Below, piece by piece: positions 3,077 through 51,838 of a stretch of 64,000 bases of DNA. Below the pieces are notes generated by a model. The model saw nothing but the letters and a program-made list of their open reading frames with translations. It ran no database searches and was not told the DNA's origin. Each line of letters opens with the position of its first letter. Position 1 is the first letter of the stretch. Made by a program: the position numbers and the translations under genes. The stretch comes from Candidatus Nomurabacteria bacterium (GTDB lineage: Bacteria; Patescibacteriota; Minisyncoccia; Phycocordibacterales; UBA9973): contig JAHFNT010000003.1 of assembly GCA_023267195.1 (NCBI GenBank), positions 10,841 through 74,840 of the forward strand, given 5' to 3'.

Positions 3077-6000
3077 CTAATCTTCTATAAAGATCGGTAT
3101 CTTTTTGAATTCCAAACACGATGCGCCTCCACAAGACCATGTCCAAGCGGAGACACCGCTCGCCGCATCACCATTGTAATTGCCTTTAGTACAATTATTG
3201 TGTTTCAGGGCGCAAACGCCTCCACCCCAAGTATTAAACTTGCAGGAAGTGCTACATCCAACTGGTTCAGAATCGCCATTTAAATCTCCATAATCACAAT
3301 CTTCACCCGATTCCACTATACCATTTCCACAAACACCATTTTTTAATTCAACGCACGAAGGAAAAGCATTTGATCCGCCATTTATACCATTGCAATCCCA
3401 AGTATAGTCAGTAGCACTTTCTCTGTTATTGACACTAGTACCAGATACGCAAGCCCAGTGGATAATATCACAAACGCCATCAATGGGAGTCGCTATGCAC
3501 TTGCCTGTACCCGGATCCCATTCGGTGCCAGATGCACAACTGGAGAACACATTACTTAAAGCAAGCTGAACTCCATCATTGTAGAGATAAAAAGTTTCAA
3601 AATTATACTTGACCGCAAAAGGAACATTTGTCCCATTATTACCAGTAGCTACAGTGACACTGGGGGCTTTAGTAACTTCTGAAGTGCCTACTGGATTAGT
3701 CGTAGTCCAGGAAAAATTTATATTGCAACTGCTTGCTCCGAGCGGAATCGTGCAGGAAGGAACGGCAGGAGTAAGCGTGCCGGACATGCTGACAGGAAGG
3801 TCTGTAACAATCACATCTGTCCAAGGTCCGCAGTTATTGCCTTCGTTTGATTCGGCAATTACTCCTTGGCTCGAGGAATCTGTTTTGTCGGCACATGCCC
3901 TAATAGGATATTTCCCATTAGTGGTAAAAGTATAAGTATAAGATTGGGTCGTCACATTACTTGCGCCAGCGCCGAGAGCTGGCATTGGTGTCGCAGGAAG
4001 ATCCTCAACATTTAAACCTCTATTAGTAATCGGTATCTGAACCTGAAAGAAATTGGAGAAACTTTGGCCAGTCGAGGTGTCACCAAGGTTAGAAATAGTC
4101 GAAGAATATATTTGAGGCACACCCACCGTAGCTGTAGTTGGAGTTGTTGCGGAGGCGGTAAGATCTATCCCCGGAGGTAAAGCCGCAGCAACATTCACCG
4201 CTGTCCAGGAAGATGAGCAGTTGTTTCCTTCATTCGATTCAGTCACTGTGCCGACAAATGAAGCATTGTTGTCAGCGCAGGCTCGCATGTATTTGGTACC
4301 GACAGAAGTAAAGGTGTGAGGAGTTGAAATCACTACACTGCCGCCGGATGCGGACAAGGTACTAGTAGTTTGAACAATACTTGTTGTTTCGTTGCCACTA
4401 GCATGATTAGCATCTTCGTCAAACTGGTATAAATGCGTGATTGTTCCGGTTGCCGAGGTAGTGCCAATATTGGAAATTGTGGCGGTATAATTTTGAGCGA
4501 CATTAACAACCCCGGTGTTAGGAGAAGTGACGGAAGCAGTGAGGTCGGGGGCAAGTGGCGCTGTGACCGTTACTGTTGCACTAGAAGGACCCCCAGTACC
4601 ATTAGTATTTGTACAAGTCATTGTATAGGTGTAAGTCTTTATTTGTGTAAGCACCCCTTGAGAAATATTTGTTCCACTCACCGCATCGCCATTAGTATTT
4701 GTCCAATCTCCTCCGGTAAATGCACAAGAGGTTGGGTTGTTGGTAGCCGACCAAGTAAGCGCCGGGTTGACCACATTCACCACTCCAGAAGCCGGGTTAG
4801 CTGAAATAGTCACCACCGGCACGGGAACGGTTGTGACCACAATTGGCGTCCAAGCATAACAATTATTATTTTCATTAAACTCATTAACTACACCAAAATC
4901 GTACGGTGGTAAATCCGCGCAGACACGTAGGTAGTAAGTGCCAGCCGAGGAGAAAGTAAGCGATTTAAATATGGTAGTTGAATTTGGGACAGAACCATAT
5001 GGATCCCCGAGAGCTGGCGTTGCTACTGAATAGTTTGTAGGGTTGCTACCGCTTGCAGAACTGGAGACCTGGAAAAGAGAAGTGGAAGCGCTAGCAGAAA
5101 CTTCCCCATTATTTTTAATCGAGGCAAAATAATTTTGGGCTACATTTACGGTTGCGGTAGTTGGAGAAAGCGAAAGAACAGTTAGATCCGGCAGGAGACA
5201 AAACGGCGGAGCAGTAGCTGAGGCTTGAGCAGAATTTGGAGAAGTTCCAACAGTGTTTACCGCTTGCACCACGTAATAATAGCCAGTACTTGGAGTCAGG
5301 GAATTGCTGTCAGTGTAGGAAGTGCCAACGATACCACTAGCAAGCAAGGTATAACCGCTACCAGAAGTGGTACTGCGAAGCACTTTGTAACTTTCTGCTC
5401 CTGTCGATGCATTCCAGGATAAGTTAATCATACCAGTTCCACAACTTCCTGCAGAAGCAGAAAGATTGGTCGGCGCTAACGGCGCAGTACCGGACACTGC
5501 TACATCTCTCCAGTCTGAACAATTATTATTTTCGTTCGTTTCACTAACTACTCCACTTGAAGCAGAATTTGTTTTGTCGGCACAAACACGAACATAAAAT
5601 GTTCCCGGATAATCAGCAGTTATGGCAGGAGAAACTGCAGCAGTTGTGCCCCCGGCCGCAAGTGCACTGACAGTACTTGATGGAAGATCATTTAGAGTTC
5701 CCCCGCCATTCGGCTCAGTGGATGTCTGGAAAAAATAGGAGAAGGAAGCATTAGTAGATTCGTTGCCAACATTTGAAATTGTTGAATTGTATGTTTGAGG
5801 AACTCCCACCTGCGCCGTAGCTGGAGTAGGTAAAGAAGCAGTTAGATCCGGACCAGTTGGCGGAGAGGCAACCACGTACGCGCTTCCCGCAGGGCCAGCG
5901 CCGCTAATATTTGAACAAGTTAAGGTGTAGGTGTATGTTCCGGCTGATGGCAATACTCCTTGAGATACGCTTGAACCACTGACTGGTTTTGAACCGTTCC

Positions 6001-9000
6001 AATCACCCGAGGCGGTACAGGAACTAGGATTATTGGTCGCACTCCAAGTGATAGCTGGGTTAATACTCCCTGTTGTACCAGTACTAGGGGTGGCTGAAAT
6101 AGTTACTATCGGTACAGGAATCGTGGCCACCACCATTGCAGTCGCTTCTGCGCTATCTCCGCCAGCGTTGGAACAAACTAAACTATAGTTATATATTTTT
6201 TGTATTGGGAGTACTCCTTGCGACACACTAGTACCACTAACTGCTCCTCCGTTGGTATTGGTCCAGTTCCCAGAAAAAGTACAGGAGGTCGGATTGTTTG
6301 TAGCGCTCCAGGTTATAGCTGGGTTAATAGTTTGTGCTGGACCAGAAGCTGGAGAAACAGAAATAGTTACTACTGGTACAGGAGGAAGGGGTGGCTGACA
6401 CATACCTCCAATCCAACTTGTTCCTGATACACAAGTTGCGTAAGCTGTAGCGCTGGCTAGCGTTTCGCCATTGTTATTTAAAAAGAAATCTCTTAGACCG
6501 AAAGATGTTTGAACGGGATAGAAAGTTACTGGAATAGATACAGTGCCAGAATTGCCATTCCCAACTACAGTATTTGGGTTTTCCCTGTTTGAAGTGACAT
6601 TCGAAATACCAACTGGGTTTGTCGTATTCCAAGCCAAAGTCGTATTACAAGAACTAGCGCCGGAGGCAATTGTGCAGTTTGAAGCGGTCAAACTTCCGGA
6701 CATAACAGGCTTATCTTCGGAACATGAGGGAGAGGTATTGGACCCACCATTTTCGCCATTACAATTCCACAGATATTGTGTCGCGGAGTCTGGAATATCA
6801 CTTAAAATTCCTGCCTGACAAGCATTCACACTGACTCCACAGACGCCATTTACTGGACTACCTGGTGTGGTTTGACACATATTTTTTACTGCATTCCAAG
6901 TCGTACCCGAAGCGCAATTGGCGCTGACAATTGTTGTAGCTAGGGTACTTGAGTTATTAACCAAGCTGCAATTAACTGTGGGACTACTGTGAGAAATAGT
7001 TATAGACTGTGAACCAGAATTGGCGGTTATTGAACTAGGCGTAGCCCCCGGACAGGAAACAGTGGAAGTGCCAACCGGATAACTTGTATTCCAAGTCAAA
7101 GTTGAAGTACAAGAGTTTGCCCCAGAATTAATAGAACAGTTGGCGGGTGAAGCACTCAAGGTTCCGGATGTGAAGTTTTCTTGAACAAAGCTTGCCAGAA
7201 CTGCACATTCGGCATTAATAGGCCCAGTAGTATAAGTATTGCCAGCAAGAGAACCCCCGCAACCTGAAACCAAAGAAGTATATCCGGTATTGGGAGTAAC
7301 GGTAAAGGTTGTCGTGTTGCCCGCCGTCACCGTCCTAGAAGCAGGTGAAATAGATCCATTGGGACCGGCTGTGGCGGCGACACTATATGAGATCGAAGAT
7401 TTTGGCGCAGTGCAGGAAACACTTACTCCTCCATTTGACCCGTTGCAATCCCATCTATATTGGGTTGAAGTATCGCCAGTAGTACCACTGCTGGTACCCG
7501 CATCACAAGTGTAAGCAACCGCTGGGACTGAACAAGCGCCATTTATTGGGGAAGATGACGTCGCGCAAATTGTTCCATTCCAAAAAGTACCCGTATCACA
7601 GGAAGAAGTAACAGTTATACCGGCACCATTTGGCGATGTTGGAACAAGTGATTTGGCGTTGTTGTATAAATAAAAAGTTCTACTGCTGTAAGGAACAGTT
7701 AAAGTTTGACTGCCTGATGTGCCAGATAAATTTATATTTGACATTCCAGTTGCAGTGATAGCTGAACTTGCTGATTCTGGACTTGCCACACTCCAAGTTG
7801 AACCGACAGTACAACTACTCTGCCCTAAGGCGATGGTGCAAGAAGAAGATGCAGGAACAAGAGTACCGGTCATAGAAGGACATGGACTGGTAGTAAATGT
7901 TACATCTGTTCCAGCTCCAGTACCCACGCTGTTTACGGCATACGCGCGAAAATGATAAGCGGTATTGCATGTCAACCCGCTTACGTTTTGTGTAAAGTTT
8001 CCTGTTCCAAAACTTCCAGACTGAGGATAAGGACTTCCATAACTCGTACTGGTACCAAAATCAAAACCTCTTTGAGTTGCATTTACTCCTCCAGTATTTG
8101 TTATATTTCCATTTAGAGCGGCAGAAGTTTGAGTTACATTTGTAGCTGAGTTGGTGGTGACAGAGGGATCTATGATCGAGGATGATGTAAACGAAAAAGA
8201 AATATTACAGTCTTGGGTAATAGCCCCTGTGGTATATACACTACCAGATGTAAATGATCCTTTAATTGGACAGTAGTCCTGCACAATACTAGACAATGAT
8301 GAATTAACGCTAAAGAATGTGGTATCCCCATACACTACTGATCTAGATCCTGGAGATACTGTACCACCAGACCCATAACTTGCAGTAACAGTATGCGGTT
8401 GGACAGTATACACAGGACTAGAACAACTAGCTGAATTGCCAGCTAGATCTGTAATAGTAACACTACAAGAACTTCCAGCTGAAGCTGTACAAGTTCCACC
8501 GGCTACGTTTATGCCACTCTGCCCGCTAATACCACTGGCAGGCGCATCGGTTGCGCCGGAAAGTGTGTATGTAGGCCCTGATCCACTCCAATTTGCACTG
8601 CTAGGACTAGGACAAATAGGATCAAGCGTATCTATTCTATTCACCGGACTTTGACATGTAGTAAAATTTTGGGTTACTGATGGACAAGGAGTGAAGTATT
8701 GATAACTGGTAGTATCAATACAAGAGGCAGTACATGTAGCGTCATTAGAAGTACCAGTAGTACAACTACTTGTATGGTTAAGCGTACTGCTCCCATCGGT
8801 ATAACTTTGATTTAAAGTAAAATATTGAGAGCTCGCAGTTGTTTTCCAAGGAATAGGAGAAGCTGGGGTCCAAGTGGCTGGGTATGCAACACATTCTGCA
8901 TTAGTAGTTGGCTGTAAAGAAATAGTAACAGTTTTAGTGGGGCCATCGTAAGGGTCTGGTTGACAATTTTGCGCGATAAAGACAGCAATTTGCGCATTGG

Positions 9001-9316
9001 TGGTTATCGGGCTTGTGGTATAAGTTCTCCCGGTCGCATTTGGCCCAACATAATTATTTGATCCGCCAGGATAAGTAATATTATTCTGCGATCCTGGCTC
9101 CGCAACTGTGTATACCGTAAAAGTAAGCGTGTTTCCGGAAGCAACTTGCACTGAGCTATCTGTTGTATAATTATTTCCGTTGATGCTGAATGTTACGCCT
9201 GGGTCACCCACCGCACTACAGAGCGCAATTGCTTGTGCTCTATTAGAATTAAAATTAAAAACTCCAGTTAGAATAAAAATCAAAAAGAAGATAATTCTTA
9301 AAAATTTATTTTTCAT
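3077..9316 (-). CDS. giant secreted modular cell-surface protein (Ig-like, CARDB-like, Fn3-like and Cys-containing tandem modules)
   Basis: ORF 3077..9358 begins with TTG; an in-frame ATG at 9316 preceded by GGAG gives a classic signal peptide MKNKFLRIIFFLIFILTGVFNFNSNRAQA. Ser/Thr/Gly-rich. Four copies of a ~100-aa module (SGTL..C.I..G.SSC...W.T..PVG ... C.SGT.W....C), each followed by a QY.W.CNG.NGG...SC module. Three Ig-like repeats (VTISA.P..G..NPA.TWSATNNP.SC). Four CARDB-like repeats ending CAD......G.V.ESNE.NNC. One Fn3-like domain (SYKVLRSTTSGSGYTLL...YYYVVQAVNTVG). Confidence 0.75.
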   Translation of the reverse strand: MKNKFLRIIFFLIFILTGVFNFNSNRAQAIALCSAVGDPGVTFSINGNNYTTDSSVQVASGNTLTFTVYTVAEPGSQNNITYPGGSNNYVGPNATGRTYTTSPITTNAQIAVFIAQNCQPDPYDGPTKTVTISLQPTTNAECVAYPATWTPASPIPWKTTASSQYFTLNQSYTDGSSTLNHTSSCTTGTSNDATCTASCIDTTSYQYFTPCPSVTQNFTTCQSPVNRIDTLDPICPSPSSANWSGSGPTYTLSGATDAPASGISGQSGINVAGGTCTASAGSSCSVTITDLAGNSASCSSPVYTVQPHTVTASYGSGGTVSPGSRSVVYGDTTFFSVNSSLSSIVQDYCPIKGSFTSGSVYTTGAITQDCNISFSFTSSSIIDPSVTTNSATNVTQTSAALNGNITNTGGVNATQRGFDFGTSTSYGSPYPQSGSFGTGNFTQNVSGLTCNTAYHFRAYAVNSVGTGAGTDVTFTTSPCPSMTGTLVPASSSCTIALGQSSCTVGSTWSVASPESASSAITATGMSNINLSGTSGSQTLTVPYSSRTFYLYNNAKSLVPTSPNGAGITVTSSCDTGTFWNGTICATSSSPINGACSVPAVAYTCDAGTSSGTTGDTSTQYRWDCNGSNGGVSVSCTAPKSSISYSVAATAGPNGSISPASRTVTAGNTTTFTVTPNTGYTSLVSGCGGSLAGNTYTTGPINAECAVLASFVQENFTSGTLSASPANCSINSGANSCTSTLTWNTSYPVGTSTVSCPGATPSSITANSGSQSITISHSSPTVNCSLVNNSSTLATTIVSANCASGTTWNAVKNMCQTTPGSPVNGVCGVSVNACQAGILSDIPDSATQYLWNCNGENGGSNTSPSCSEDKPVMSGSLTASNCTIASGASSCNTTLAWNTTNPVGISNVTSNRENPNTVVGNGNSGTVSIPVTFYPVQTSFGLRDFFLNNNGETLASATAYATCVSGTSWIGGMCQPPLPPVPVVTISVSPASGPAQTINPAITWSATNNPTSCTFSGNWTNTNGGAVSGTSVSQGVLPIQKIYNYSLVCSNAGGDSAEATAMVVATIPVPIVTISATPSTGTTGSINPAITWSATNNPSSCTASGDWNGSKPVSGSSVSQGVLPSAGTYTYTLTCSNISGAGPAGSAYVVASPPTGPDLTASLPTPATAQVGVPQTYNSTISNVGNESTNASFSYFFQTSTEPNGGGTLNDLPSSTVSALAAGGTTAAVSPAITADYPGTFYVRVCADKTNSASSGVVSETNENNNCSDWRDVAVSGTAPLAPTNLSASAGSCGTGMINLSWNASTGAESYKVLRSTTSGSGYTLLASGIVGTSYTDSNSLTPSTGYYYVVQAVNTVGTSPNSAQASATAPPFCLLPDLTVLSLSPTTATVNVAQNYFASIKNNGEVSASASTSLFQVSSSASGSNPTNYSVATPALGDPYGSVPNSTTIFKSLTFSSAGTYYLRVCADLPPYDFGVVNEFNENNNCYAWTPIVVTTVPVPVVTISANPASGVVNVVNPALTWSATNNPTSCAFTGGDWTNTNGDAVSGTNISQGVLTQIKTYTYTMTCTNTNGTGGPSSATVTVTAPLAPDLTASVTSPNTGVVNVAQNYTATISNIGTTSATGTITHLYQFDEDANHASGNETTSIVQTTSTLSASGGSVVISTPHTFTSVGTKYMRACADNNASFVGTVTESNEGNNCSSSWTAVNVAAALPPGIDLTASATTPTTATVGVPQIYSSTISNLGDTSTGQSFSNFFQVQIPITNRGLNVEDLPATPMPALGAGASNVTTQSYTYTFTTNGKYPIRACADKTDSSSQGVIAESNEGNNCGPWTDVIVTDLPVSMSGTLTPAVPSCTIPLGASSCNINFSWTTTNPVGTSEVTKAPSVTVATGNNGTNVPFAVKYNFETFYLYNDGVQLALSNVFSSCASGTEWDPGTGKCIATPIDGVCDIIHWACVSGTSVNNRESATDYTWDCNGINGGSNAFPSCVELKNGVCGNGIVESGEDCDYGDLNGDSEPVGCSTSCKFNTWGGGVCALKHNNCTKGNYNGDAASGVSAWTWSCGGASCLEFKKIPIFIED

Positions 9317-9441
9317 ATTTATTTTTTCTCCGCTCCCATGGTTTAATAATACTTTCAATTGTACTACAAAAAATGTAAAAAGTTATCTAAAAAGTTATCC
9401 ACATAATTTAAAAAATTTAAAATTATAAATTTAGGCAAATT

Positions 9442-9484: not shown

Positions 9485-9567
9485 TCTCAACCGCGCGATT
9501 GTGCGCAGTCGAGTGATGTGAGGGGGAAGAAGGGCCCCCTCGATCCCTTGCTCTAACCTATCAGGGG

Positions 9568-10347
9568 CTAGTTAGTGGGTGGCCGATAAACGGCCACCAC
9601 CCGGCTGGAGCAACGACCTCCTTCGCAGTAGGTCATGACCCAGTCGTTGTTAGGAAGGCTCCCCATGGAGATCTTCCCGTTGACGATTGGGACTTTGTTC
9701 CCCCCGAGAGTTACCACGGGGGGGGTCACCGAGACCGTCGGTACAGAGACGTTGATTTCGGACCCGTCCTCAGAGGGCCAGGCCCGAACGAACGGCCCAC
9801 ACGCGGGGGCCGCCGCCATCCGCACAGGCACCTCGGCAGACACGAACGAAACAGCACCAGTGGTCCCGTCAGTGATCACCGCCTCGAAAGCCGTAACCCC
9901 AACCGGCCAGGGGTCAGGGAACTTGGAACCCCAGAGCTGGGACCACCAGGTCCCACCACCCGAACCCGCCGGCACAGTGAAGCTGTTAAGCGGGATTGTT
10001 GCCCTCGAGGGCAGCACGATGTTGAAAAGGATCGTGCTTCCCTCGGGAAGCGGGTCGAACTGGTAGAAGTTCACGTGGGTTATCCGGGCGAATCCCGGGG
10101 GACCCACGAAAGAGACCTCGATTGTGGCGTTAGCCGGCGTCATCGCCGGCTCTGCAGCCCTGATCGAGGACCGAGAGCCGATATGAGTGGTGATGATGCC
10201 ACTCGTACCGTCGGTCAGCATGTCACCGGCGAAGTCTTCTGTGCCCGAAGGCACCAACTCAGCCAGCGACCGCCGAGGAGCCGTGGGCTGCGTGGCGTCC
10301 ACAGAGGACGCCAGCAGAAAGAAGAGGGTAACGAGAGTGGCGCGCAT
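9568..10347 (-). CDS. hypothetical secreted protein encoded in a GC-rich (~60%) cassette
   Basis: 259 aa; signal peptide MRATLVTLFFLLASSVDA; strong SD AAGGAGGG 7 nt before ATG; codon usage/GC clearly unlike flanking genes; several long shadow ORFs on both strands typical of GC-rich DNA. Confidence 0.55.
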   Translation of the reverse strand: MRATLVTLFFLLASSVDATQPTAPRRSLAELVPSGTEDFAGDMLTDGTSGIITTHIGSRSSIRAAEPAMTPANATIEVSFVGPPGFARITHVNFYQFDPLPEGSTILFNIVLPSRATIPLNSFTVPAGSGGGTWWSQLWGSKFPDPWPVGVTAFEAVITDGTTGAVSFVSAEVPVRMAAAPACGPFVRAWPSEDGSEINVSVPTVSVTPPVVTLGGNKVPIVNGKISMGSLPNNDWVMTYCEGGRCSSRVVAVYRPPTN

Positions 10348-10537
10348 GGCGCCCTCCTTTCCGACCCGCCTTTCTTTGCGGATCTGTTGTTAGTCTACTC
10401 TTCTGTTGTCGACGAACCGACAACCGAAGAACCAGTAATTCCTTATGAGTATACCATAAAAAAGTAAAAAACACAATTGCAAGTGGATAACCTGTGGACA
10501 ATTTTTGCCGTATACTGTCAATGTTTTTGGCTCGAAT

Positions 10538-10586
10538 TCTCCCCTCTCCTTACTAAGGGGAGGGGTTTTGGGTAAGGTGAGTGGGG
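10538..10586 (+). repeat. G/C-rich palindromic repeat element, copy A (hairpin + G-tract tail)
   Basis: CTCCCCTCTCC-TTACTAA-GGGGAGGGG followed by TTTTGGGTAAGGTGAGTGGGG; same architecture as copies at 20331..20392 and 51797..51838. Confidence 0.5.
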
Positions 10587-10691
10587 CTATGGGAAAACAA
10601 TTTGCATTAAAACACACTCTGTGATAAACTTCTCTACGTACGAGTCCTGCGAAACAGGGCTTTATTTTTTACCAAAATTTAATAAAAATTT

Positions 10692-13925: not shown

Positions 13926-13969
13926 TCTATTTGGGTCCGATTATTAATCTAAATATAAGAAAAATACTT

Positions 13970-14893
13970 ATGAAAAAATACTTAAGTCTATTTATTGTTT
14001 TATTAATGGCATTTGCTATAAATGCCAACGTTTCAAGGGCAAGAGATGATGAATCTTTTGACGCTTCTGGTAAAGAAAAGGTCCAAGTTGAAACTAATTT
14101 AAAAATCGGGGTAAATGTTTCCGATGAAGATAGTCAAGATAACAGTAATGAAGATGAAGATAAGGATGGGGTTAATGATACTGAAGACAGGGATGACGAT
14201 GATGATGGCATATTAGACATCAAAGACCTCAAACCACTGGATCATGACAACGATGGTATTGATGATGCAAAGGACGAAGATGATGATAATGATGGCATAT
14301 TAGACATCAAGGATTTGAGTTTGTTTGACCGTAACAATGATGGCATCAAAGACAAAGAGGCTTTAGACATCGAAGCAAAAACAAGAACTGAGGCTGCTCG
14401 GGAAGAAGCCAAGAAAAAATTAGAAGCTTTGCGAGAAAATTTAAAAGAGGAGAAAGATGAAGCCAAAGCAAAAATCAAAGAATTAAGAATCACCGGGAGA
14501 GAGAAAGCGTTGGAGCGATTTGATAATGCAGTCGAAAGAATTAGTGAATTAAAAGACAAGGTAAACGAAAAAATTGTTAAATTGGAAGCAAAAGGGGTAG
14601 TTGTAGTGGAGGCAAAAGCTTTCGTTGCCTCAGCTGAAACAAAATTGAATGAGGCTAAAGCAAAAATTACTGAAATTAATACTGTACTGGCTGCGTCGAT
14701 TACTGAACTTTCTCTAGAGAGTAAAACAAAATTAAGAACTCTGGCGCAAGAAACTCAAACTCTCCTTGTGGAAGCGCATAAAGCATTAAGGGATGCGGTT
14801 AAGTCACTCAAGGATGCTGTAAAGGTAAAAATTGAAGCAAATGCAAACCTAAAGGTATCAGAAAACAATGATAAAAATGAAGGTAGTAATTAA
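13970..14893 (+). CDS. secreted protein with thrombospondin-type-3-like calcium-binding repeats and coiled-coil C-terminus
   Basis: ORF 13931 begins with TTG; ATG at 13970 gives signal peptide MKKYLSLFIVLLMAFAINA; repeated DxDxDGxxD motifs (DKDGVNDTEDRDDDDDGILD, DHDNDGIDDAKDEDDDNDGILD); Lys/Glu-rich coiled-coil tail. Confidence 0.55.
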   Translation: MKKYLSLFIVLLMAFAINANVSRARDDESFDASGKEKVQVETNLKIGVNVSDEDSQDNSNEDEDKDGVNDTEDRDDDDDGILDIKDLKPLDHDNDGIDDAKDEDDDNDGILDIKDLSLFDRNNDGIKDKEALDIEAKTRTEAAREEAKKKLEALRENLKEEKDEAKAKIKELRITGREKALERFDNAVERISELKDKVNEKIVKLEAKGVVVVEAKAFVASAETKLNEAKAKITEINTVLAASITELSLESKTKLRTLAQETQTLLVEAHKALRDAVKSLKDAVKVKIEANANLKVSENNDKNEGSN

Positions 14894-16292: not shown

Positions 16293-17015
16293 CTATTTTG
16301 GGAGATCTTTCTTCTTTGTATAGGCTTCTATGTCTATGAGCACTAGATGAAATTCTGTACCCCGTCTAACTATCATAAAACTGTTCCATTTTAAATCGTG
16401 CGGAATTATTCCATTCTCAAGAAAAAGTTTTCTTAATTCATCGGCTAGTCTTATAAAAATTTGTGGATTTTGGACGTCAACTCCTTTTATATTTTTATAC
16501 ACGGCATACTTCTGGGTAGATTCTTTGTCAACGAATGCCGCAATTGGCTCTGCAAGCTCAAGCCCAGCATAACCATACTTTTTTGCTAATTTCTGAAATA
16601 CGCCCTTGGAAATTATTTCTTTTATTTTTTCTGATAAAGTAATTTCATTTAATACACTGGCTCGAGCATAGATGGACTCCGTGTCAAAGTCGGAGCGAAA
16701 TGTTGGGTTGATGGGATTTATTTTAGACCGACCTCGAGCAAAATCTATATGTTCTTTTGTCCCACCTTTTTTATCTTTTACATAAAATCGCGCTCTTGTG
16801 TCAGAATCTTTAACCTGTCTAATTTTTTCTAATAAAACATCAAAGTCAACTGGATTCTTTTGCGCTATTTCGTGTTTAATAATCTCAAGAACAAGATCGC
16901 GATCTTTCGGCGATGGATAATCTAAATTAAGGACAACATCAACTCCCGGCAGGTGTTCAATTTTATAATTGCCTTTTAATTCCTTTTTAGGTGTGCTTAA
17001 TTCAAGTGTCTTCAT
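16293..17015 (-). CDS. small protein-kinase-like-fold phosphotransferase (APH/Kdo-kinase-like motifs), hypothetical
   Basis: 240 aa; catalytic-loop-like HDLKWNSF (HxDLKxxN) and LVLIDIE (IDxE) resembling aminoglycoside/Kdo kinase motifs. Confidence 0.35.
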   Translation of the reverse strand: MKTLELSTPKKELKGNYKIEHLPGVDVVLNLDYPSPKDRDLVLEIIKHEIAQKNPVDFDVLLEKIRQVKDSDTRARFYVKDKKGGTKEHIDFARGRSKINPINPTFRSDFDTESIYARASVLNEITLSEKIKEIISKGVFQKLAKKYGYAGLELAEPIAAFVDKESTQKYAVYKNIKGVDVQNPQIFIRLADELRKLFLENGIIPHDLKWNSFMIVRRGTEFHLVLIDIEAYTKKKDLPK

Positions 17016-17962: not shown

Positions 17963-20900
17963 TTAATTATTTAAATATTCTCTAAAAGATTTGATTTCCA
18001 AACTTTGGATCGGGTAACGAGCTAAAGCTTTGATAAAAGCTCGCGCCAAATGTAAATCAGTAAATAATGGAATTTGGCTATCGACCGCGGCCCGGCGAAT
18101 GCGAAACCCGTCGGTAACCACATGGTTCCTATCGCCAATACTTGTCTCCCCGGTAATTTCAGTCTTACTTAAATTTACCACAAAAGAAACTTTTTTGTTT
18201 TCAATAACATCGAGTGCATTGGGCGAATGCTCAAATGCTTTACGCACAACTGTGCATTTTATATTTTGTTTCTTGAAAAATTCTGCAGTCGTGTCGGTGG
18301 CAAAAATTTTATAATGGAGGGCAATCAATATTTGAGCTGTTTCTAAAAATTTAGCCTTGTTCAGCTCGCCTCCCAAGGAAAGCAAAACATTTTTATTTTT
18401 AAAATCAAATTTATTCGTGCTCAAGATTGACTTGAGAAGCGCTTCATCGTAATCTTTGCCAAAACAAGCCGCTTCTCCAGTGGAAGACATTTCTACTCGA
18501 AGCACCGGATCAGCCCCGAGCAATCTCCCAAAGGAAAACTGAGGAGATTTAACTAAGACACTTTTGGGATAAACAAAATTATGGATTTTAGCGCGGCCAA
18601 AAAAACTATCTACGGCTATCTCAGGAAAATTGGCATCCATCGCCTTAGAAAGAAATGGGAAAGTCCGGCTAGCTCTCGCATTGACTTCAATCACAAATGG
18701 TCTATTGTCCTTAACGAGAAATTGAATGTTGAATGGTCCGGTAATAGAAAGCTCGCGCGCGATTTTTTTAGAAATTTCACGCAATTGGAATTCTGTAGAA
18801 GCATAAACTCTCTGCGTGGGATATACGATAGTCGCATCGCCGGAATGAACTCCGGCATTTTCCACGTGTTCAGATATTCCATAAATCATCAGGTTGCCAT
18901 CTTGAGCCACAGCATCAAACTCAAGTTCTTTTGCGTTCTCAATATATTTGGAAATAGTTACAGGATGAAGCGGAGATAAAATAGCCGCTTTCCCTATAAA
19001 ATTATGGAGTTGTTTTTTGTTATAGCACACACGCATAGCCGAACCGGAAAGCACGTAAGAAGGACGAACTAAAACCGGGAATCCTTCTTTTTTTGTAAAT
19101 GAAAAAGCCTTTTCCATAGACGAAAAACTCTGCCACTTTGGCTGAAGTATGCCTAGTTTGTCCAATAGTGCCGAAAATTTATTGCGATCTTCTGCTCGGT
19201 CTATATTTTCAGCACTAGTTCCTAAAATATTAATACCAGACTGAGAAAGTTGTTTGGCTAAATTATTTGGTCTTTGTCCGCCGACAGAAATTATCAACCC
19301 TCCACTATTTTCAAATTCAAAAATATCAGCCACTGTTTCAAAAGACAAATTTTCAAAATACAATCGATCAGACATGTCATAATCAGTAGAAACAGTTTCA
19401 GGATTGCAATTCACGATAATAGATTTTTTGTTGTGTCGTTTAAGAGCCAACCCAGCATAAACAGAGGACCAATCAAATTCCACCGAAGAACCGATGTGAT
19501 ACGGACCGCTTCCTAACACAATAATTGCATTTTTCCCTAATGGAGATGTGTCATGGTGACTACCATGATAAGTCAGATATAAATAATTGGTTTTTGCCGG
19601 CACTTCTCCCGCCAAAGTATCAATGGCAAAAACAAAGGGTTTAATTCCTAACCGAATGCGCAATTGTCTAATTTCCAATTCTTTTTTATTGCACAAAAGG
19701 GCAATTTTCTTATCAGAAAAACCAACTCGTTTCAACTCCATCAAAGCAACTTTGTCTAAATTTTTATGTTTCAATAGCTTTTTTTCTGTATTTACAATAT
19801 TTTCTATGCGATATAAAAACCAAGGATCAATTCCGGTGATCTTATGAATTTCTTCTACACTCATCCCCCGCTTAATACTTTCGGCAACAGCGAATATTCT
19901 GTTCGGGGTAGCAGTATTTAAAAAATATTTCAGATCCTCGCCTGCTTTTGTTCTGGCAAACTTATCATCTCTAAAAAAGTTATCTGTAACGCTTTCCTGG
20001 AGACCAGACTGCATACGTACTGCTTTTTGAAAAGCTTCTTCAAAAGTTCTCCCGATAGCCATTACTTCACCCACTGATTTCATCGCGCTGCCGATATGCA
20101 GAAGCGCGCCATCGAATTTCACCAAATCCCATCTCGGCATCTTCACTACTATATAATCAAGCGCCGGTTCAAAGAAACTTTGAGTCACCTTGGTAACTTT
20201 ATTTTCTATTTCGAGTAAACTATATCCGAGAGCAAGTTTGGCGGCTACATAAGCAAGCGGATAACCAGTGGCCTTGGACGCAAGCGCGCTTGACCTAGAA
20301 AGACGCGCGTTGACTTCAATTACAAAAAAATCCACCCCACCCTTCTCCCTCCCCTGCGAAGGGGAGGGTTGGGGAGGGGTCGGGTTAAGCGCAAATTGCA
20401 CATTGCATTCCCCAACTATTTCCAAACTCTGCACTATTTTTATGCTTGCTTCTCGGAGCTTATGATATTCCTCGTTATTTAATGTTTGGCTGGGCGCTAC
20501 GACTATGGAATCCCCTGTGTGAATTCCAAGCGGATCTAAATTTTCCATATTGCATACTGTTACTATATTTCCAAATTGGTCGCGTACAACTTCGTATTCT
20601 ATTTCTTTAAAATGGTGCAGGTATTTTTCAATTAAAACTTGCGGAGATATTGAAAGGGCGCCTTTTACTATTTCCTCCAATTCTTTTAGAGAATTTACGA
20701 CGCCTGATTTCTGCCCTCCCAAAGCAAAAGCTGCCCTAACCATGAGCGGAAAACCAATTTTTTGGGCCACTATCTTTGCTTGCTTTAAATTGGTCGCGCT
20801 ACCAGACGGCGGAACCGGAATATTAATACTTTTCAAGTGCGTAGCAAACTTTTCTCTATCCTCCGTCAATAAAATTGAAGAAATCGGACTGCCAATAACT

Positions 20901-21238
20901 TTTACATTATATTTTTTTAAAATTCCCTTAGTATAAAGCGCCAATCCGCAATTGAGCGCTGTCTGCCCCCCAAAGGATAAACAAATAGCGTCGGGTTTTT
21001 CTTTGATGATTACTTTTTCAACAAAATATTCGTCCACCGGCAAGAAATAAACTTCATCGGCAAGGTTTTTGGATGTTTGAAATGTGGCAATATTTGGATT
21101 AACTAAAATAACTTTTATCTTTTCTTCTTTGAGCGCTTTGATCGCTTGACTGCCAGAATAGTCAAACTCCCCAGCCTCTCCGATCTTTAGGGCACCTGAA
21201 CCAAGTATTAAAATTTTTTTGTATTTATTTTTAGTCAT
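17963..21238 (-). CDS. carB: carbamoyl-phosphate synthase large subunit
   Basis: 1091 aa; duplicated ATP-grasp halves plus MGS-like domain; contains a ~15-aa Pro/Gly-rich insertion (TPPQPSPSQGREKGG) encoded by the repeat element at 20331..20392. Confidence 0.95.
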   Translation of the reverse strand: MTKNKYKKILILGSGALKIGEAGEFDYSGSQAIKALKEEKIKVILVNPNIATFQTSKNLADEVYFLPVDEYFVEKVIIKEKPDAICLSFGGQTALNCGLALYTKGILKKYNVKVIGSPISSILLTEDREKFATHLKSINIPVPPSGSATNLKQAKIVAQKIGFPLMVRAAFALGGQKSGVVNSLKELEEIVKGALSISPQVLIEKYLHHFKEIEYEVVRDQFGNIVTVCNMENLDPLGIHTGDSIVVAPSQTLNNEEYHKLREASIKIVQSLEIVGECNVQFALNPTPPQPSPSQGREKGGVDFFVIEVNARLSRSSALASKATGYPLAYVAAKLALGYSLLEIENKVTKVTQSFFEPALDYIVVKMPRWDLVKFDGALLHIGSAMKSVGEVMAIGRTFEEAFQKAVRMQSGLQESVTDNFFRDDKFARTKAGEDLKYFLNTATPNRIFAVAESIKRGMSVEEIHKITGIDPWFLYRIENIVNTEKKLLKHKNLDKVALMELKRVGFSDKKIALLCNKKELEIRQLRIRLGIKPFVFAIDTLAGEVPAKTNYLYLTYHGSHHDTSPLGKNAIIVLGSGPYHIGSSVEFDWSSVYAGLALKRHNKKSIIVNCNPETVSTDYDMSDRLYFENLSFETVADIFEFENSGGLIISVGGQRPNNLAKQLSQSGINILGTSAENIDRAEDRNKFSALLDKLGILQPKWQSFSSMEKAFSFTKKEGFPVLVRPSYVLSGSAMRVCYNKKQLHNFIGKAAILSPLHPVTISKYIENAKELEFDAVAQDGNLMIYGISEHVENAGVHSGDATIVYPTQRVYASTEFQLREISKKIARELSITGPFNIQFLVKDNRPFVIEVNARASRTFPFLSKAMDANFPEIAVDSFFGRAKIHNFVYPKSVLVKSPQFSFGRLLGADPVLRVEMSSTGEAACFGKDYDEALLKSILSTNKFDFKNKNVLLSLGGELNKAKFLETAQILIALHYKIFATDTTAEFFKKQNIKCTVVRKAFEHSPNALDVIENKKVSFVVNLSKTEITGETSIGDRNHVVTDGFRIRRAAVDSQIPLFTDLHLARAFIKALARYPIQSLEIKSFREYLNN
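20331..20392 (+). repeat. G/C-rich palindromic repeat element, copy B, inserted in-frame inside carB
   Basis: CCTTCTCCCTCCCC-TGCGAA-GGGGAGGG followed by TTGGGGAGGGGTCGGGTTAAGCGC; canonical G-quadruplex-capable G-runs; translated in carB as NPTPPQPSPSQGREKGG where E. coli CarB has NPKNGR. Confidence 0.55.
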
Positions 21239-51796: not shown

Positions 51797-51838
51797 CACC
51801 CTCTCCTGTCAGGAGAGGGTCTGGGGGTAAGGTTAAGC
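51797..51838 (+). repeat. G/C-rich palindromic repeat element, copy C (overlaps rpsO stop codon)
   Basis: CACCCTCTCC-TGTCA-GGAGAGGG followed by TCTGGGGGTAAGGTTAAGC; the rpsO TAA lies in the GGTTAAGC tail. Confidence 0.5.

What the first reader, a model, noticed from the sequence alone, without database searches (positions are those of the whole stretch)
20331..20392. G/C-rich palindromic repeat inserted in frame inside carB, adding a 15-aa Pro/Gly loop (RPE-like behaviour)
carB here contains NPTPPQPSPSQGREKGGVDFF where E. coli CarB has NPKNGRLIV. The extra residues are encoded exactly by a hairpin-plus-G-tract element (CCTTCTCCCTCCCC-TGCGAA-GGGGAGGG TTGGGGAGGGGTCGGGTTAAG). Near-identical architecture recurs at 10538-10586 upstream of nusA and at 51797-51838 overlapping the rpsO stop. 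Short palindromic elements that colonise coding sequences in frame are known from Rickettsia (RPEs) but would be new here. The G-runs also fit the canonical G-quadruplex pattern.
Basis: partly seen in the sequence, partly recalled or inferred. Interest (0 to 1): 0.72.

Follow-up and report, generated by a model that had tools for sequence, protein, structure and literature searches.

The report
Triplex-motif DNA repeat inside carB
A 47-base G/C-rich repeat of a known kind (an "intrastrand triplex motif", called BoxC in E. coli) sits in frame inside the essential carB gene of an ultra-small (CPR) bacterium. Relatives carry such repeats in the same protein loop and in other core genes, so this class of repeat, so far described as intergenic, can live inside proteins.

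Summary
carB (17963-21238, minus strand) carries a G/C-rich element at 20334-20380 that encodes TPPQPSPSQGREKGG. This is 12-13 residues more than E. coli or human CPS and 9 more than the empty CPR loop (NPNPKNGELDYF).

The element is not a new kind of repeat. It is a class II purine-type intrastrand triplex motif: C-stem, G-stem and a mirror-image G third strand. Here it is perfect on both strands. It belongs to the same class as E. coli BoxC/PIT/TMECO (Holder 2015).

The G-quadruplex pattern is present. However, the family obeys the mirror (triplex) rule, not a G4 rule. The "GGTTAAG" tail is simply the conserved Leu-Asn-Pro codons.

What looks new is the behaviour:
- In 84 related CPR loci, 39 of 48 such sites lie in long open frames, in carB, carA, tig and nusA.
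- The carB loop was hit or remodelled many times (at least 30 state changes among 120 homologs).
- The element occurs in both orientations and as doublets.
- It is the most variable patch between two 99.6%-identical strains.

The loop is the tip of a beta-hairpin (E. coli N289-R294) and also tolerates unrelated inserts.

Best reading: selfish or neutral structured DNA kept only at permissive loops, behaving like RPEs without belonging to that family. How it spreads is unknown.

The parts
17963..21238 (-). carB (carbamoyl-phosphate synthase large subunit, 1091 aa), the host gene. It is intact and full length.
   Evidence: ORF list and translation. It scores 1045 bits to human CPS1 and 781 bits to E. 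coli CarB. An identical protein, P0001, is found in three assemblies.
20334..20380 (.). Double-sided intrastrand triplex motif, in frame in carB. It encodes residues 287-301, TPPQPSPSQGREKGG.
   Evidence: The triplex finder hits it on both strands with 0-1 mismatch. As single-stranded DNA it folds at -18.6 and -18.3 kcal/mol (z about -2.7). It shows as an indel against PDB CarB/CPS1 and against CPR homologs.
20334..20343 (-). Third strand of the minus-strand triplex. AGGGTGGGGT is read on the carB sense strand; the + strand shows its complement, ACCCCACCCT.
   Evidence: One search gives ACCCTCCCCT-tcgc-AGGGGAGGGA-ga-AGGGTGGGGT with 0 third-strand mismatches.
20347..20355 (+). Pyrimidine stem, CCCTCCCCT.
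   Evidence: Perfect 9-bp hairpin with 20360-20368.
20356..20359 (+). Hairpin loop, GCGA on the + strand and TCGC on the carB sense strand.
   Evidence: The loop has the same sense-strand sequence as in L003, although the flanks are inverted.
20360..20368 (+). Purine stem, AGGGGAGGG.
20372..20380 (+). Third strand of the plus-strand triplex, GGGAGGGGT. It is the mirror image of the purine stem and follows loop 2 (TTG, 20369-20371).
   Evidence: Parsed by the G*G, A*A and T*A rule with 0 mismatches (read directly from the sequence). The finder's alternative register gives no more than 1 mismatch.
51799..51833 (+). Intergenic single-sided triplex motif, CCCTCTCCT-gtc-AGGAGAGGG-tctgg-GGGTAAGGT. 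It lies immediately 3' of rpsO (stop codon at 51833-51835, minus strand) and upstream of an NYN-domain gene.
10540..10590 (+). Decayed relative upstream of nusA. The hairpin CCCCTCTCC/GGGGAGGGG is followed by the G-rich tail TTTTGGGTAAGGTGAGTGGGG, which breaks the mirror rule at about 3 positions.

Best explanation
[quoted passage not shown] Each has a pyrimidine stem, a complementary purine stem and a G-rich third block that mirrors the purine stem. This is the class known as BoxC/PIT/TMECO in E. coli. The carB copy is double-sided: it has a third block on each side, so either strand can fold back twice.

**How it persists.** It behaves as selfish or neutral DNA. It has landed, or been copied, into the tip of the beta-hairpin that links the strand carrying the Q285-equivalent to the strand carrying the E299/N301-equivalents of the first ATP-grasp domain of CarB. 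It persists there for two reasons:
- The loop is structurally permissive.
- C-runs followed by G-runs translate, in most frames and in both orientations, into stop-free Pro/Ser/Leu ... Gly/Arg/Glu peptides that make a flexible surface loop.

**Why it is found in genes.** In these gene-dense CPR genomes, permissive protein loops are where most surviving copies sit. Once there, the motif makes the site locally unstable: doublets form and collapse, elements invert, and patches are replaced. This produces the observed patchwork among relatives.

**Shown:** the architecture, family membership, in-frame coding location, recurrence, orientation differences, strain-level hypervariability and loop position.

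**Inferred:** that the element has no function of its own for CarB, that selection filters insertions down to permissive loops, and that single-stranded folding (triplex or hairpin) during replication or repair drives spread and instability. The copying mechanism itself is unknown.
For: **Architecture**
- The carB copy parses with 0-1 mismatch as a class II triplex on both strands.
- Among 37 perfect Y/R hairpins (74 strand views) in the window and 83 related loci, the 3' block obeys the antiparallel mirror rule with 0 mismatches in 31 views. The figure is 4 for a direct-repeat rule and 0.7% for shuffled tails. The rule holds across subfamilies whose A positions differ: GGGGGAGG/GGAGGGGG, GGGGGGAA/AAGGGGGG, GAGAGGGG/GGGGTGAG.
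- There were 62 hits against 0, 0, 0 in shuffled controls.

**Known class**
- Holder et al. 2015 give the pattern CCCTCNCCC-N3-6-GGGNGAGGG-N3-GGGNGAGGG and list 23 E. coli copies.
- The L003 intergenic copies are near-identical to these.

**Coding location**
- 39 of 48 sites lie in open frames of at least 120 codons.
- Protein alignments show them as indels in carA, tig and nusA.
- TMs are stop-free in 4.1-4.8 of 6 frames on average.

**Dispersal rather than local evolution**
- The same two-hairpin doublet occurs in tig and nusA of one genome (L009), in carB of L009, and in tig of L007.

**Recurrence and turnover at the carB loop**
- 40 of 120 homologs have long loops, with at least 30 state changes on an NJ tree.
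- At least six TM subfamilies occupy the site.
- The window element matches the L003 element 48/53 only when inverted.
- L009 and L208 are 99.6% identical over 9.2 kb, yet 34 of 69 differences fall in the TM patch.

**Permissive loop**
- The same loop also carries unrelated inserts: a GTAG palindrome in L048, a tandem repeat in L075 and others.
- It aligns to E. coli N289-R294.
- AlphaFold models it as coil with pLDDT below 50 (residues 292-300) between strands 276-285 and 303-311.
Against: - No mobilising enzyme and no target-site duplication were found, so 'insertion' is inferred from presence/absence patterns only.
- The net length gain (9-15 aa-equivalents) is smaller than the element. Each event therefore also removed native loop codons, or part of the motif grew in place.
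- Perfect conservation of both third strands in the carB copy, and the three-block covariation across subfamilies, could mean the structure is under selection. That fits a purely neutral passenger less well.
- Published work found no triplex in vivo in E. coli by DMS footprinting.
- The NJ tree used for counting gains and losses is poorly resolved at 75-85% identity. Short-patch recombination, seen, could inflate the count.
- Only about 20 kb around carB was sampled per genome, so whole-genome copy numbers and the true coding/intergenic ratio are unknown.
Confidence: 0.8

Rival explanations
1. The relevant structure is a G-quadruplex. The element would be a quadruplex-forming sequence acting on replication, transcription or translation of carB.
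For: The carB copy contains the only two canonical G3+N1-7 x4 patterns of the window, one per strand. Comparable archaeal repeats switch between triplex and G4 in K+ in vitro (PMC8044849).
Against: Most family members lack four G3 tracts. For example, the rpsO copy reads GGAGAGGG-TCTGG-GGGTAAGG, and the L003 copies read GGAGAGGG-CTA-GGGTGAGG. Two of the four tracts are locked in a 9-bp G:C hairpin. The third block follows the mirror rule and not just G-richness (31 against 4 against 0.7%).
Confidence: 0.1
2. The elements are REP/REPIN-type repeats mobilised in trans by a RAYT-like Y1 tyrosine transposase.
For: RAYT-like Y1_Tnp genes occur in 11 of 88 related loci. TMs occur as inverted doublets reminiscent of REPINs. 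A GTAG-tagged palindrome occupies the same carB loop in L048.
Against: The Y1 gene in L007 is flanked by a different palindrome, TTGTGCAACATCGGATGTTGCACAA, and not by TMs. No Y1 homolog is found in the 64-kb window. TMs lack the GTAG/CGTC tag. The E. coli TMs were reported without association to mobile elements.
Confidence: 0.1
3. The Pro/Gly-rich loop is selected at the protein level, as a linker or interaction surface of CarB, and the DNA palindrome is a by-product.
For: Pro ... Gly loops recur at the same CarB position in about a third of CPR homologs.
Against: The same DNA architecture occurs intergenically (51799 in the window; L003, L004, L038, L050, L053 and L063). It occurs in both orientations and in different frames, giving different peptides such as PSPSQGR, PLPKGEG, LRRGEKKGG and SLRGGQGG. 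The mirror rule is a DNA-level constraint with no protein meaning. The closest relatives function without the loop.
Confidence: 0.03
4. The motif has a host function at the DNA or RNA level, for example as a recombination or gene-conversion hotspot, a replication pause site or an mRNA hairpin. Under this view it is maintained by selection rather than being selfish.
For: There is three-block covariation across subfamilies. The carB copy is perfect on both strands. The strain-level difference between L009 and L208 is concentrated at the motif. Holder et al. link TMs to local instability. The rpsO copy places a G/C hairpin right after a stop codon.
Against: Presence at any given site is patchy, even among close relatives. 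No positional rule relative to genes was seen. The E. coli elements showed no promoter or terminator activity and no in vivo triplex.
Confidence: 0.1

Closest known systems
[quoted passage not shown] 2015, PMC4666352)
   Same: - It has the same three-block architecture: C-stem, G-stem, mirror G third strand, and short loops.
- The sequence is almost the same. E. coli has CCCTCTCCC-TGT-GGGAGAGGG-TTA-GGGTGAGGG; CPR locus L003 has CCCTCTCC-TTTCA-GGAGAGGG-CTA-GGGTGAGG.
- It is a multi-copy dispersed family and occurs as inverted pairs.
- It is associated with local sequence instability between close strains.
   Different: - In E. coli the copies are reported as always intergenic. Here most sampled copies are in frame inside core genes.
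- The window's carB copy does not fit the literal TMECO consensus (CCCTCCCCT against CCCTCNCCC).
- The carB copy is double-sided.
- The host is a CPR/Patescibacteria genome of about 40% GC, a group not covered by the 2015 survey as far as the text read here shows.
Recurrent G4/triplex repeats of Methanomicrobiaceae archaea (PMC8044849)
   Same: A G-rich block lies next to a complementary C-run. A hairpin/triplex/G4 equilibrium was shown in vitro. It is a dispersed multi-copy family.
   Different: The C-run lies 3' of the G blocks. All copies are reported as intergenic. The hosts are archaea.
Rickettsia palindromic elements (RPEs; Ogata et al. 2000, 2002, as summarised in PMC10969869)
   Same: These are palindromic repeats inserted in frame in unrelated housekeeping genes. 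They add peptide segments at positions compatible with the protein fold, in a reduced genome.
   Different: RPEs are about 100-150 bp and encode a conserved peptide of about 30-50 aa. They have no triplex architecture and are restricted to Rickettsia. Here the elements are 30-50 nt (up to about 70 nt as doublets), and the peptides vary with frame and orientation.
REP / REPIN elements with RAYT transposases (PMC3116915, PMC3733652)
   Same: These are short imperfect palindromes in high copy number, and inverted doublets may be the mobile unit. RAYT-like genes are present in related CPR genomes.
   Different: The elements here have no GTAG/CGTC tag and no RAYT adjacency. REPs are extragenic by definition. 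The third-strand block has no counterpart in REPs.

Membership tests
G/C-rich class II intrastrand triplex motif (BoxC/PIT/TMECO class) | Three consecutive blocks on one strand: a pyrimidine (C-rich) stem, a Watson-Crick complementary purine stem, and a third G-rich block, separated by short loops. | tested here: met
   The window copy reads 20347-20355 / 20360-20368 / 20372-20380, with loops of 4 and 3 nt. The same arrangement exists on the minus strand.
G/C-rich class II intrastrand triplex motif (BoxC/PIT/TMECO class) | The third block is antiparallel to (a mirror of) the purine stem, with G*G, A*A or T*A triads and at most one mismatch. | tested here: met
   The carB copy has 0-1 mismatches on both strands. 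Family-wide, 31 of 74 strand views are perfect under the mirror rule, against 4 under a direct rule and 0.7% for shuffled tails.
G/C-rich class II intrastrand triplex motif (BoxC/PIT/TMECO class) | Literal TMECO consensus CCCTCNCCC-N3-6-GGGNGAGGG-N3-GGGNGAGGG. | tested here: not met
   The carB copy has CCCTCCCCT / AGGGGAGGG / GGGAGGGGT, which matches 8 of 9 positions per block. It therefore belongs to the broader class and is not TMECO in the strict sense. The L003 intergenic copies match 8 of 9 positions per block with the same A/T positions.
G/C-rich class II intrastrand triplex motif (BoxC/PIT/TMECO class) | Multi-copy, dispersed and over-represented relative to scrambled sequence. | tested here: met
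   The window holds two good copies and one decayed copy in 64 kb. There are 48 sites in 84 non-redundant related loci and 0 in shuffles. The whole genome was not available.
G/C-rich class II intrastrand triplex motif (BoxC/PIT/TMECO class) | Intergenic location (reported as 'always' in E. coli MG1655). | tested here: not met
   The carB copy is in frame, and 39 of 48 sites in relatives lie in long open frames. This is a behaviour reported for E. coli, not a structural criterion.
G/C-rich class II intrastrand triplex motif (BoxC/PIT/TMECO class) | The single strand folds into a stable triplex in vitro (CD, NMR). | not testable with these tools
   Only the Watson-Crick hairpin energy could be computed: -18.6 kcal/mol, z = -2.7.
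Rickettsia palindromic elements (RPE) | A palindromic repeat of about 100-150 bp encoding a conserved peptide, belonging to one of the defined RPE families of Rickettsia. | tested here: not met
   The element is 47 nt. The peptides differ between copies. The host is a CPR bacterium. Sequence similarity to RPEs was not tested, as no RPE sequences were at hand.
Rickettsia palindromic elements (RPE) | In-frame insertion in unrelated housekeeping genes at positions compatible with the fold. | tested here: met
   This holds for carB, carA, tig and nusA. The carB site is a beta-hairpin tip modelled as low-confidence coil.
REP/REPIN-RAYT | A conserved GTAG or CGTC tetranucleotide at one end of the palindrome. 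| tested here: not met
   No such tag is present in any of the copies listed.
REP/REPIN-RAYT | A cognate RAYT (Y1 transposase) flanked by the repeats. | tested here: not met
   tblastn with the L007 Y1 protein finds no hit in the window. The L007 gene is flanked by a different palindrome. The rest of the genome was not searched.
Canonical G-quadruplex motif | Four tracts of at least 3 G separated by 1-7 nt. | tested here: inconclusive
   The criterion is met by the carB copy on both strands. It is not met by the rpsO copy or by most family members.

The most novel reading that the evidence does not exclude
Intrastrand triplex motifs would be an actively propagating, structure-defined family of tiny mobile DNA, with the inverted doublet as the unit, analogous to REPINs. 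In Patescibacteria they would live mainly inside protein-coding genes and be a major source of loop indels and strain-level variation in core proteins. The coordinated variation of all three blocks across subfamilies would then be the first comparative-genomic evidence that the triplex fold, or a protein that reads it, matters in vivo. Biophysical work in E. coli could not show this.
Probability: 0.25. Interest if true: 0.8.

Novelty: new variant of a known kind. Interest (0 to 1): 0.55.

Why it matters
Intrastrand triplex repeats (BoxC/PIT/TMECO) have been known for about 30 years without an established function or copying mechanism. They have been described as intergenic.

Here they are tolerated, recurrent and hypervariable inside essential genes of streamlined CPR bacteria. 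This matters in four ways:
1. It shows that a second, unrelated repeat class behaves like Rickettsia RPEs.
2. It offers natural filled, empty and inverted site series at orthologous codons, from which insertion and turnover mechanisms can be inferred.
3. It gives a covariation argument that the three-strand architecture is constrained.
4. It warns annotators and phylogeneticists that Pro/Gly-rich indels in CPR marker proteins are DNA-repeat artefacts of evolution rather than lineage signatures.

Tried and rejected
- **Rfam, whole window, gathering threshold:** only four tRNAs were found and nothing at the elements.
- **Generic repeat finder:** it did not pick up the family because the copies are too short and too divergent. 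A custom hairpin and triplex scan was needed.
- **RAYT link:** a Y1 transposase was found in L007, but it is flanked by a different palindrome and is absent from the window.
- **Target specificity for the carB loop:** rejected as the main cause of the hotspot, because unrelated inserts occupy the same loop. A role for CCN...GGN microhomology was considered but could not be tested.
- **Literature searches:** searches for CPR/Patescibacteria combined with palindromic, intragenic or triplex repeats found nothing relevant. The cyanobacterial 'small dispersed repeats' paper I recalled is not in the library, so that comparison rests on memory only.
- **Window genome in genome contigs:** it is not a species representative there (best match 84%), so no whole-genome census was possible.
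- **ORF-context test on IMG/VR hits:** unreliable for GC-rich contigs, because long spurious frames are common. Only two in-frame viral cases were confirmed by Pfam.
- **Second CarB indel (FARTKAGE, about aa 426):** the DNA shows no palindrome.
- **AlphaFold model:** quality is only moderate (mean pLDDT 67). I used it only for secondary structure around the loop.
Full report
**1. The observation**

carB is the 1091-aa ORF at 17963-21238 on the minus strand. The + strand at 20332-20380 reads CCACCCCACCC-TTCT-CCCTCCCCT-GCGA-AGGGGAGGG-TTG-GGGAGGGGT. On the coding strand this gives residues 287-301, TPPQPSPSQGREKGG.

phmmer against PDB sequences shows these residues as a gap:
- 13 aa against human CPS1 (5dot).
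- 12 aa against E. coli CarB, where the equivalent is the NPKNGR turn, N289-R294 by my count from the alignment.

From established knowledge of the E. coli structure, that turn lies between the strand carrying Q285 and the strand carrying E299/N301, which are the metal and nucleotide ligands.

The identical gene is present in three independent assemblies, so the insertion is not an assembly artefact.

The element stands out from its background:
- It is the strongest C-run/G-run island in the window.
- It holds the only canonical G4 patterns in the window, one per strand.
- As single-stranded DNA it folds at -18.6 kcal/mol, z = -2.7.

It is the complement of the conserved Leu-Asn-Pro codons that every homolog has.

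**2. Anatomy**

The hairpin (9 bp, loop of 4) is followed by a G-rich block that is the mirror image of the purine stem: AGGGGAGGG, then TTG, then GGGAGGGGT. This gives nine G*G, A*A or T*A triads. The same holds on the other strand (AGGGGAGGGA - GA - AGGGTGGGGT), so the carB copy is double-sided.

This is the architecture of a class II (purine-motif) intrastrand triplex.

A literature search by sequence words led to Holder et al. 2015 (PMC4666352). They describe the BoxC/PIT/'TMECO' repeat as follows:
- The pattern is CCCTCNCCC-N3-6-GGGNGAGGG-N3-GGGNGAGGG.
- There are 23 copies in E. coli MG1655, always intergenic.
- There are 3610 copies in 262 proteobacterial genomes, and many G/C triplex motifs in cyanobacteria.
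- It forms a stable triplex as a single strand in vitro, but none was detected in vivo.
- It has no promoter or terminator activity.
- It is associated with local instability, and five loci carry inverted pairs.

Similar repeats that switch between triplex and G4 occur intergenically in Methanomicrobiaceae (PMC8044849).

**3. The family**

The host is a CPR/Patescibacteria bacterium of the Paceibacteria/Nomurabacteria type.

*Copies in the window.* The window has a second good copy at 51799-51833. It is intergenic and abuts the rpsO stop codon. A decayed copy lies at about 10540-10590, upstream of nusA.

*Related DNA sampled.* I fetched the carB neighbourhood of relatives: 7 loci by exact protein look-up, 80 from GTDB species genomes, and 1 further strain.

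*Triplex finder.* I used stems of at least 8 nt, with at most 1 Watson-Crick mismatch and at most 1 third-strand mismatch. It gave 62 hits in 1.5 Mb, against 0, 0, 0 in block-shuffled controls.

*Less circular test.* I first collected perfect pyrimidine/purine hairpins without looking at the flanks (37 hairpins, 74 strand views).
- The 3' block satisfied the mirror rule with no mismatch in 31 views.
- It satisfied a direct-repeat rule in only 4 views.
- Shuffled tails satisfied the mirror rule in 0.7% of trials.
- Subfamilies whose A positions differ all obey the rule.

The family is therefore defined by triplex geometry, not by G-richness or G4 potential. Intergenic copies in L003 (CCCTCTCC-TTTCA-GGAGAGGG-CTA-GGGTGAGG) are nearly the E. 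coli type A sequence.

**4. The carB loop across relatives**

*Distribution among homologs.* In a MAFFT alignment of 120 CPR CarB homologs (75-84% identity), the common state is NP-xPKNGx-LDYF. Forty homologs have longer loops, most of them Pro/Ser ... Gly/Arg/Glu. The closest relatives P0005, P0007 and P0008 lack any insert.

*DNA of the site.* In 88 loci the empty site reads AAT CCA AAT CCA AAA AAT GGN GAA CTN GAT TAT TTT. At least six different TM subfamilies fill it.

*Gains and losses.* On an NJ tree with the loop masked, loop length needs at least 30 state changes. This is a rough figure, because the tree is weakly resolved.

*Orientation.* The window element matches the L003 element 48/53 without gaps only when the window's antisense strand is compared with L003's sense strand. 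The sense-to-sense comparison gives 41/50 with gaps. The 4-nt hairpin loop nevertheless has the same sense-strand sequence in both. The two are thus related by inversion of the flanks or by independent insertion. I cannot tell which.

*Strain-level change.* L009 and L208 are 99.6% identical over 9.2 kb. Of their 69 differing columns, 34 fall in the roughly 60-nt TM patch of carB, where a doublet in one strain is a singlet in the other. This echoes the instability reported for E. coli.

*Other inserts at the same loop.* Some genomes carry unrelated inserts here: a GTAG-tagged perfect palindrome (L048), another hairpin (L023 and P0112), and a tandem repeat (L075). The hotspot is therefore best explained by structural permissiveness, not by target specificity.

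*Structure model.* An AlphaFold model of residues 1-410 (moderate quality, mean pLDDT 67) places the insert as coil with pLDDT below 50 (residues 292-300) between strands 276-285 and 303-311.

**5. Other genes**

Of 48 non-redundant TM sites, 39 lie inside open frames of at least 120 codons. Since 92% of bases lie in such frames, TMs are mildly depleted from coding sequence (p = 0.012), but most are still coding.

Alignments of carA, tig and nusA from the window and relatives show these sites as in-frame indels: for example HPILHPPLRRRGSGRG in carA, TSPQPSPEGGEGEIL in tig and RPLPSLPLNKGEVP in nusA.

A composite two-hairpin doublet recurs with closely similar sequence in several places:
- tig and nusA of one genome (L009);
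- carB of L009;
- tig of L007.

The composite has the order C third block, hairpin 1, spacer, hairpin 2, G third block. This shows dispersal of a unit rather than convergent local evolution.

TMs are stop-free in 4.1-4.8 of six frames on average, which makes them intrinsically tolerable in ORFs.

The canonical motif also occurs in more than 120 IMG/VR contigs. These include in-frame copies in a CHC2 primase and a Bro-N protein. Coding copies are therefore not confined to CPR.

**6. Mechanism**

*Shown:*
- The element belongs to a dispersed, triplex-shaped repeat family.
- Copies sit in frame in permissive loops of core proteins.
- Such sites turn over quickly.

*Inferred:*
- The element is a selfish or neutral passenger.
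- Selection removes copies everywhere except in loops, termini and the scarce intergenic DNA.
- Fold-back of the single strand during replication or repair underlies both copying and instability.

No transposase link was found. RAYT-like Y1 genes exist in 11 related loci, but the one examined is flanked by a different palindrome, and the window has none. No target-site duplication is evident. The net gain is shorter than the element, so native codons were lost or part of the motif arose in place.

**7. Comparison and novelty**

In structure the element belongs to the BoxC/PIT/TMECO class. It does not fit the literal TMECO consensus, and its location breaks the 'always intergenic' description. 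In behaviour it resembles Rickettsia RPEs (as summarised in PMC10969869), but it is not a member: the size, the family and the host are all different. It lacks the tag and the RAYT adjacency of REP/REPINs.

I found no paper in the library describing triplex motifs inside genes, or any such repeats in CPR. Absence from this library is not proof that none exists.

I rate it as a new variant of a known kind, of moderate interest. The most novel reading not excluded by the evidence is that the three-block covariation reflects in vivo constraint on the triplex fold, and that doublets are the mobile unit.

Noticed in passing
CarB homolog alignment: N-terminus, about window CarB aa 423-426 and about aa 489 (window about 19960-19985 for the aa 426 site): CPR CarB proteins have further indel hotspots with recurring peptides: PRRLSGSGSRPKASA at the N-terminus; AKSGSVSD, AQGGSASG and GSASGGKN near aa 425; and LRLRTG, GYGRA and LGRSLTGEA near aa 489. 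One of these is present or absent within a single 90%-identity cluster (P0152 against P0004). They are probably other short repeat families. The window's own FARTKAGE segment shows no palindrome.
   Followed up: partly
L048 carB loop (about 4040-7351 in the locus): The same CarB loop carries an in-frame, GTAG-tagged perfect palindrome, GTAGGGAACGGTCTAGACCGTTCCCTAC (peptide RVGNGLDRSLQG). This is a REP-like element inside a gene.
   Followed up: no
L007 14232-15100: A 217-aa Y1_Tnp (RAYT-like) gene lies between pyrB and tig. It is flanked by three copies of the palindrome TTGTGCAACATCGGATGTTGCACAA. Homologs occur in 11 of 88 related loci and none in the window.
   Followed up: partly
L003 14166-15421: An N6/N4 methyltransferase plus a DUF559 (Vsr-like) gene are inserted between pyrB and tig, bracketed by four triplex motifs. 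The window has an unannotated 240-aa ORF (16293-17015) with no Pfam hit at the equivalent place.
   Followed up: partly
window 17963-21238: This bacterial CarB scores much higher to human mitochondrial CPS1 (1045 bits) than to E. coli CarB (781 bits). One relative (P0033, 1455 aa) is a CarA-CarB fusion.
   Followed up: no
Some copies are in frame inside a CHC2 DnaG-type primase (ASPQPSPRGEGVG) and a Bro-N protein (MPSPQPSPKTGEGV).
   Followed up: partly
L009 against L208 (carB region, 9.2 kb): Outside the triplex-motif patch, the few differences between these two 99.6%-identical strains are clustered in short tracts, for example 9 differences in 21 nt at L208 5416-5436. This suggests short-patch recombination within carB.
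   Followed up: no
window 9500-10400 and 3077-9358: A locally GC-rich stretch with several G/C hairpins contains a 259-aa ORF (9568-10347, minus strand). Gene calls for the same DNA (L001) list no Pfam hit on record for it. It lies next to a 2093-aa ORF with weak CARDB/fn3 hits, probably a surface protein.
   Followed up: no
window 14153-14364: Imperfect tandem 87-nt repeats encode Asp-rich segments (DEDKDGVNDTEDRDDDDDGILDIKD-like) inside ORF 13931-14893.
   Followed up: no
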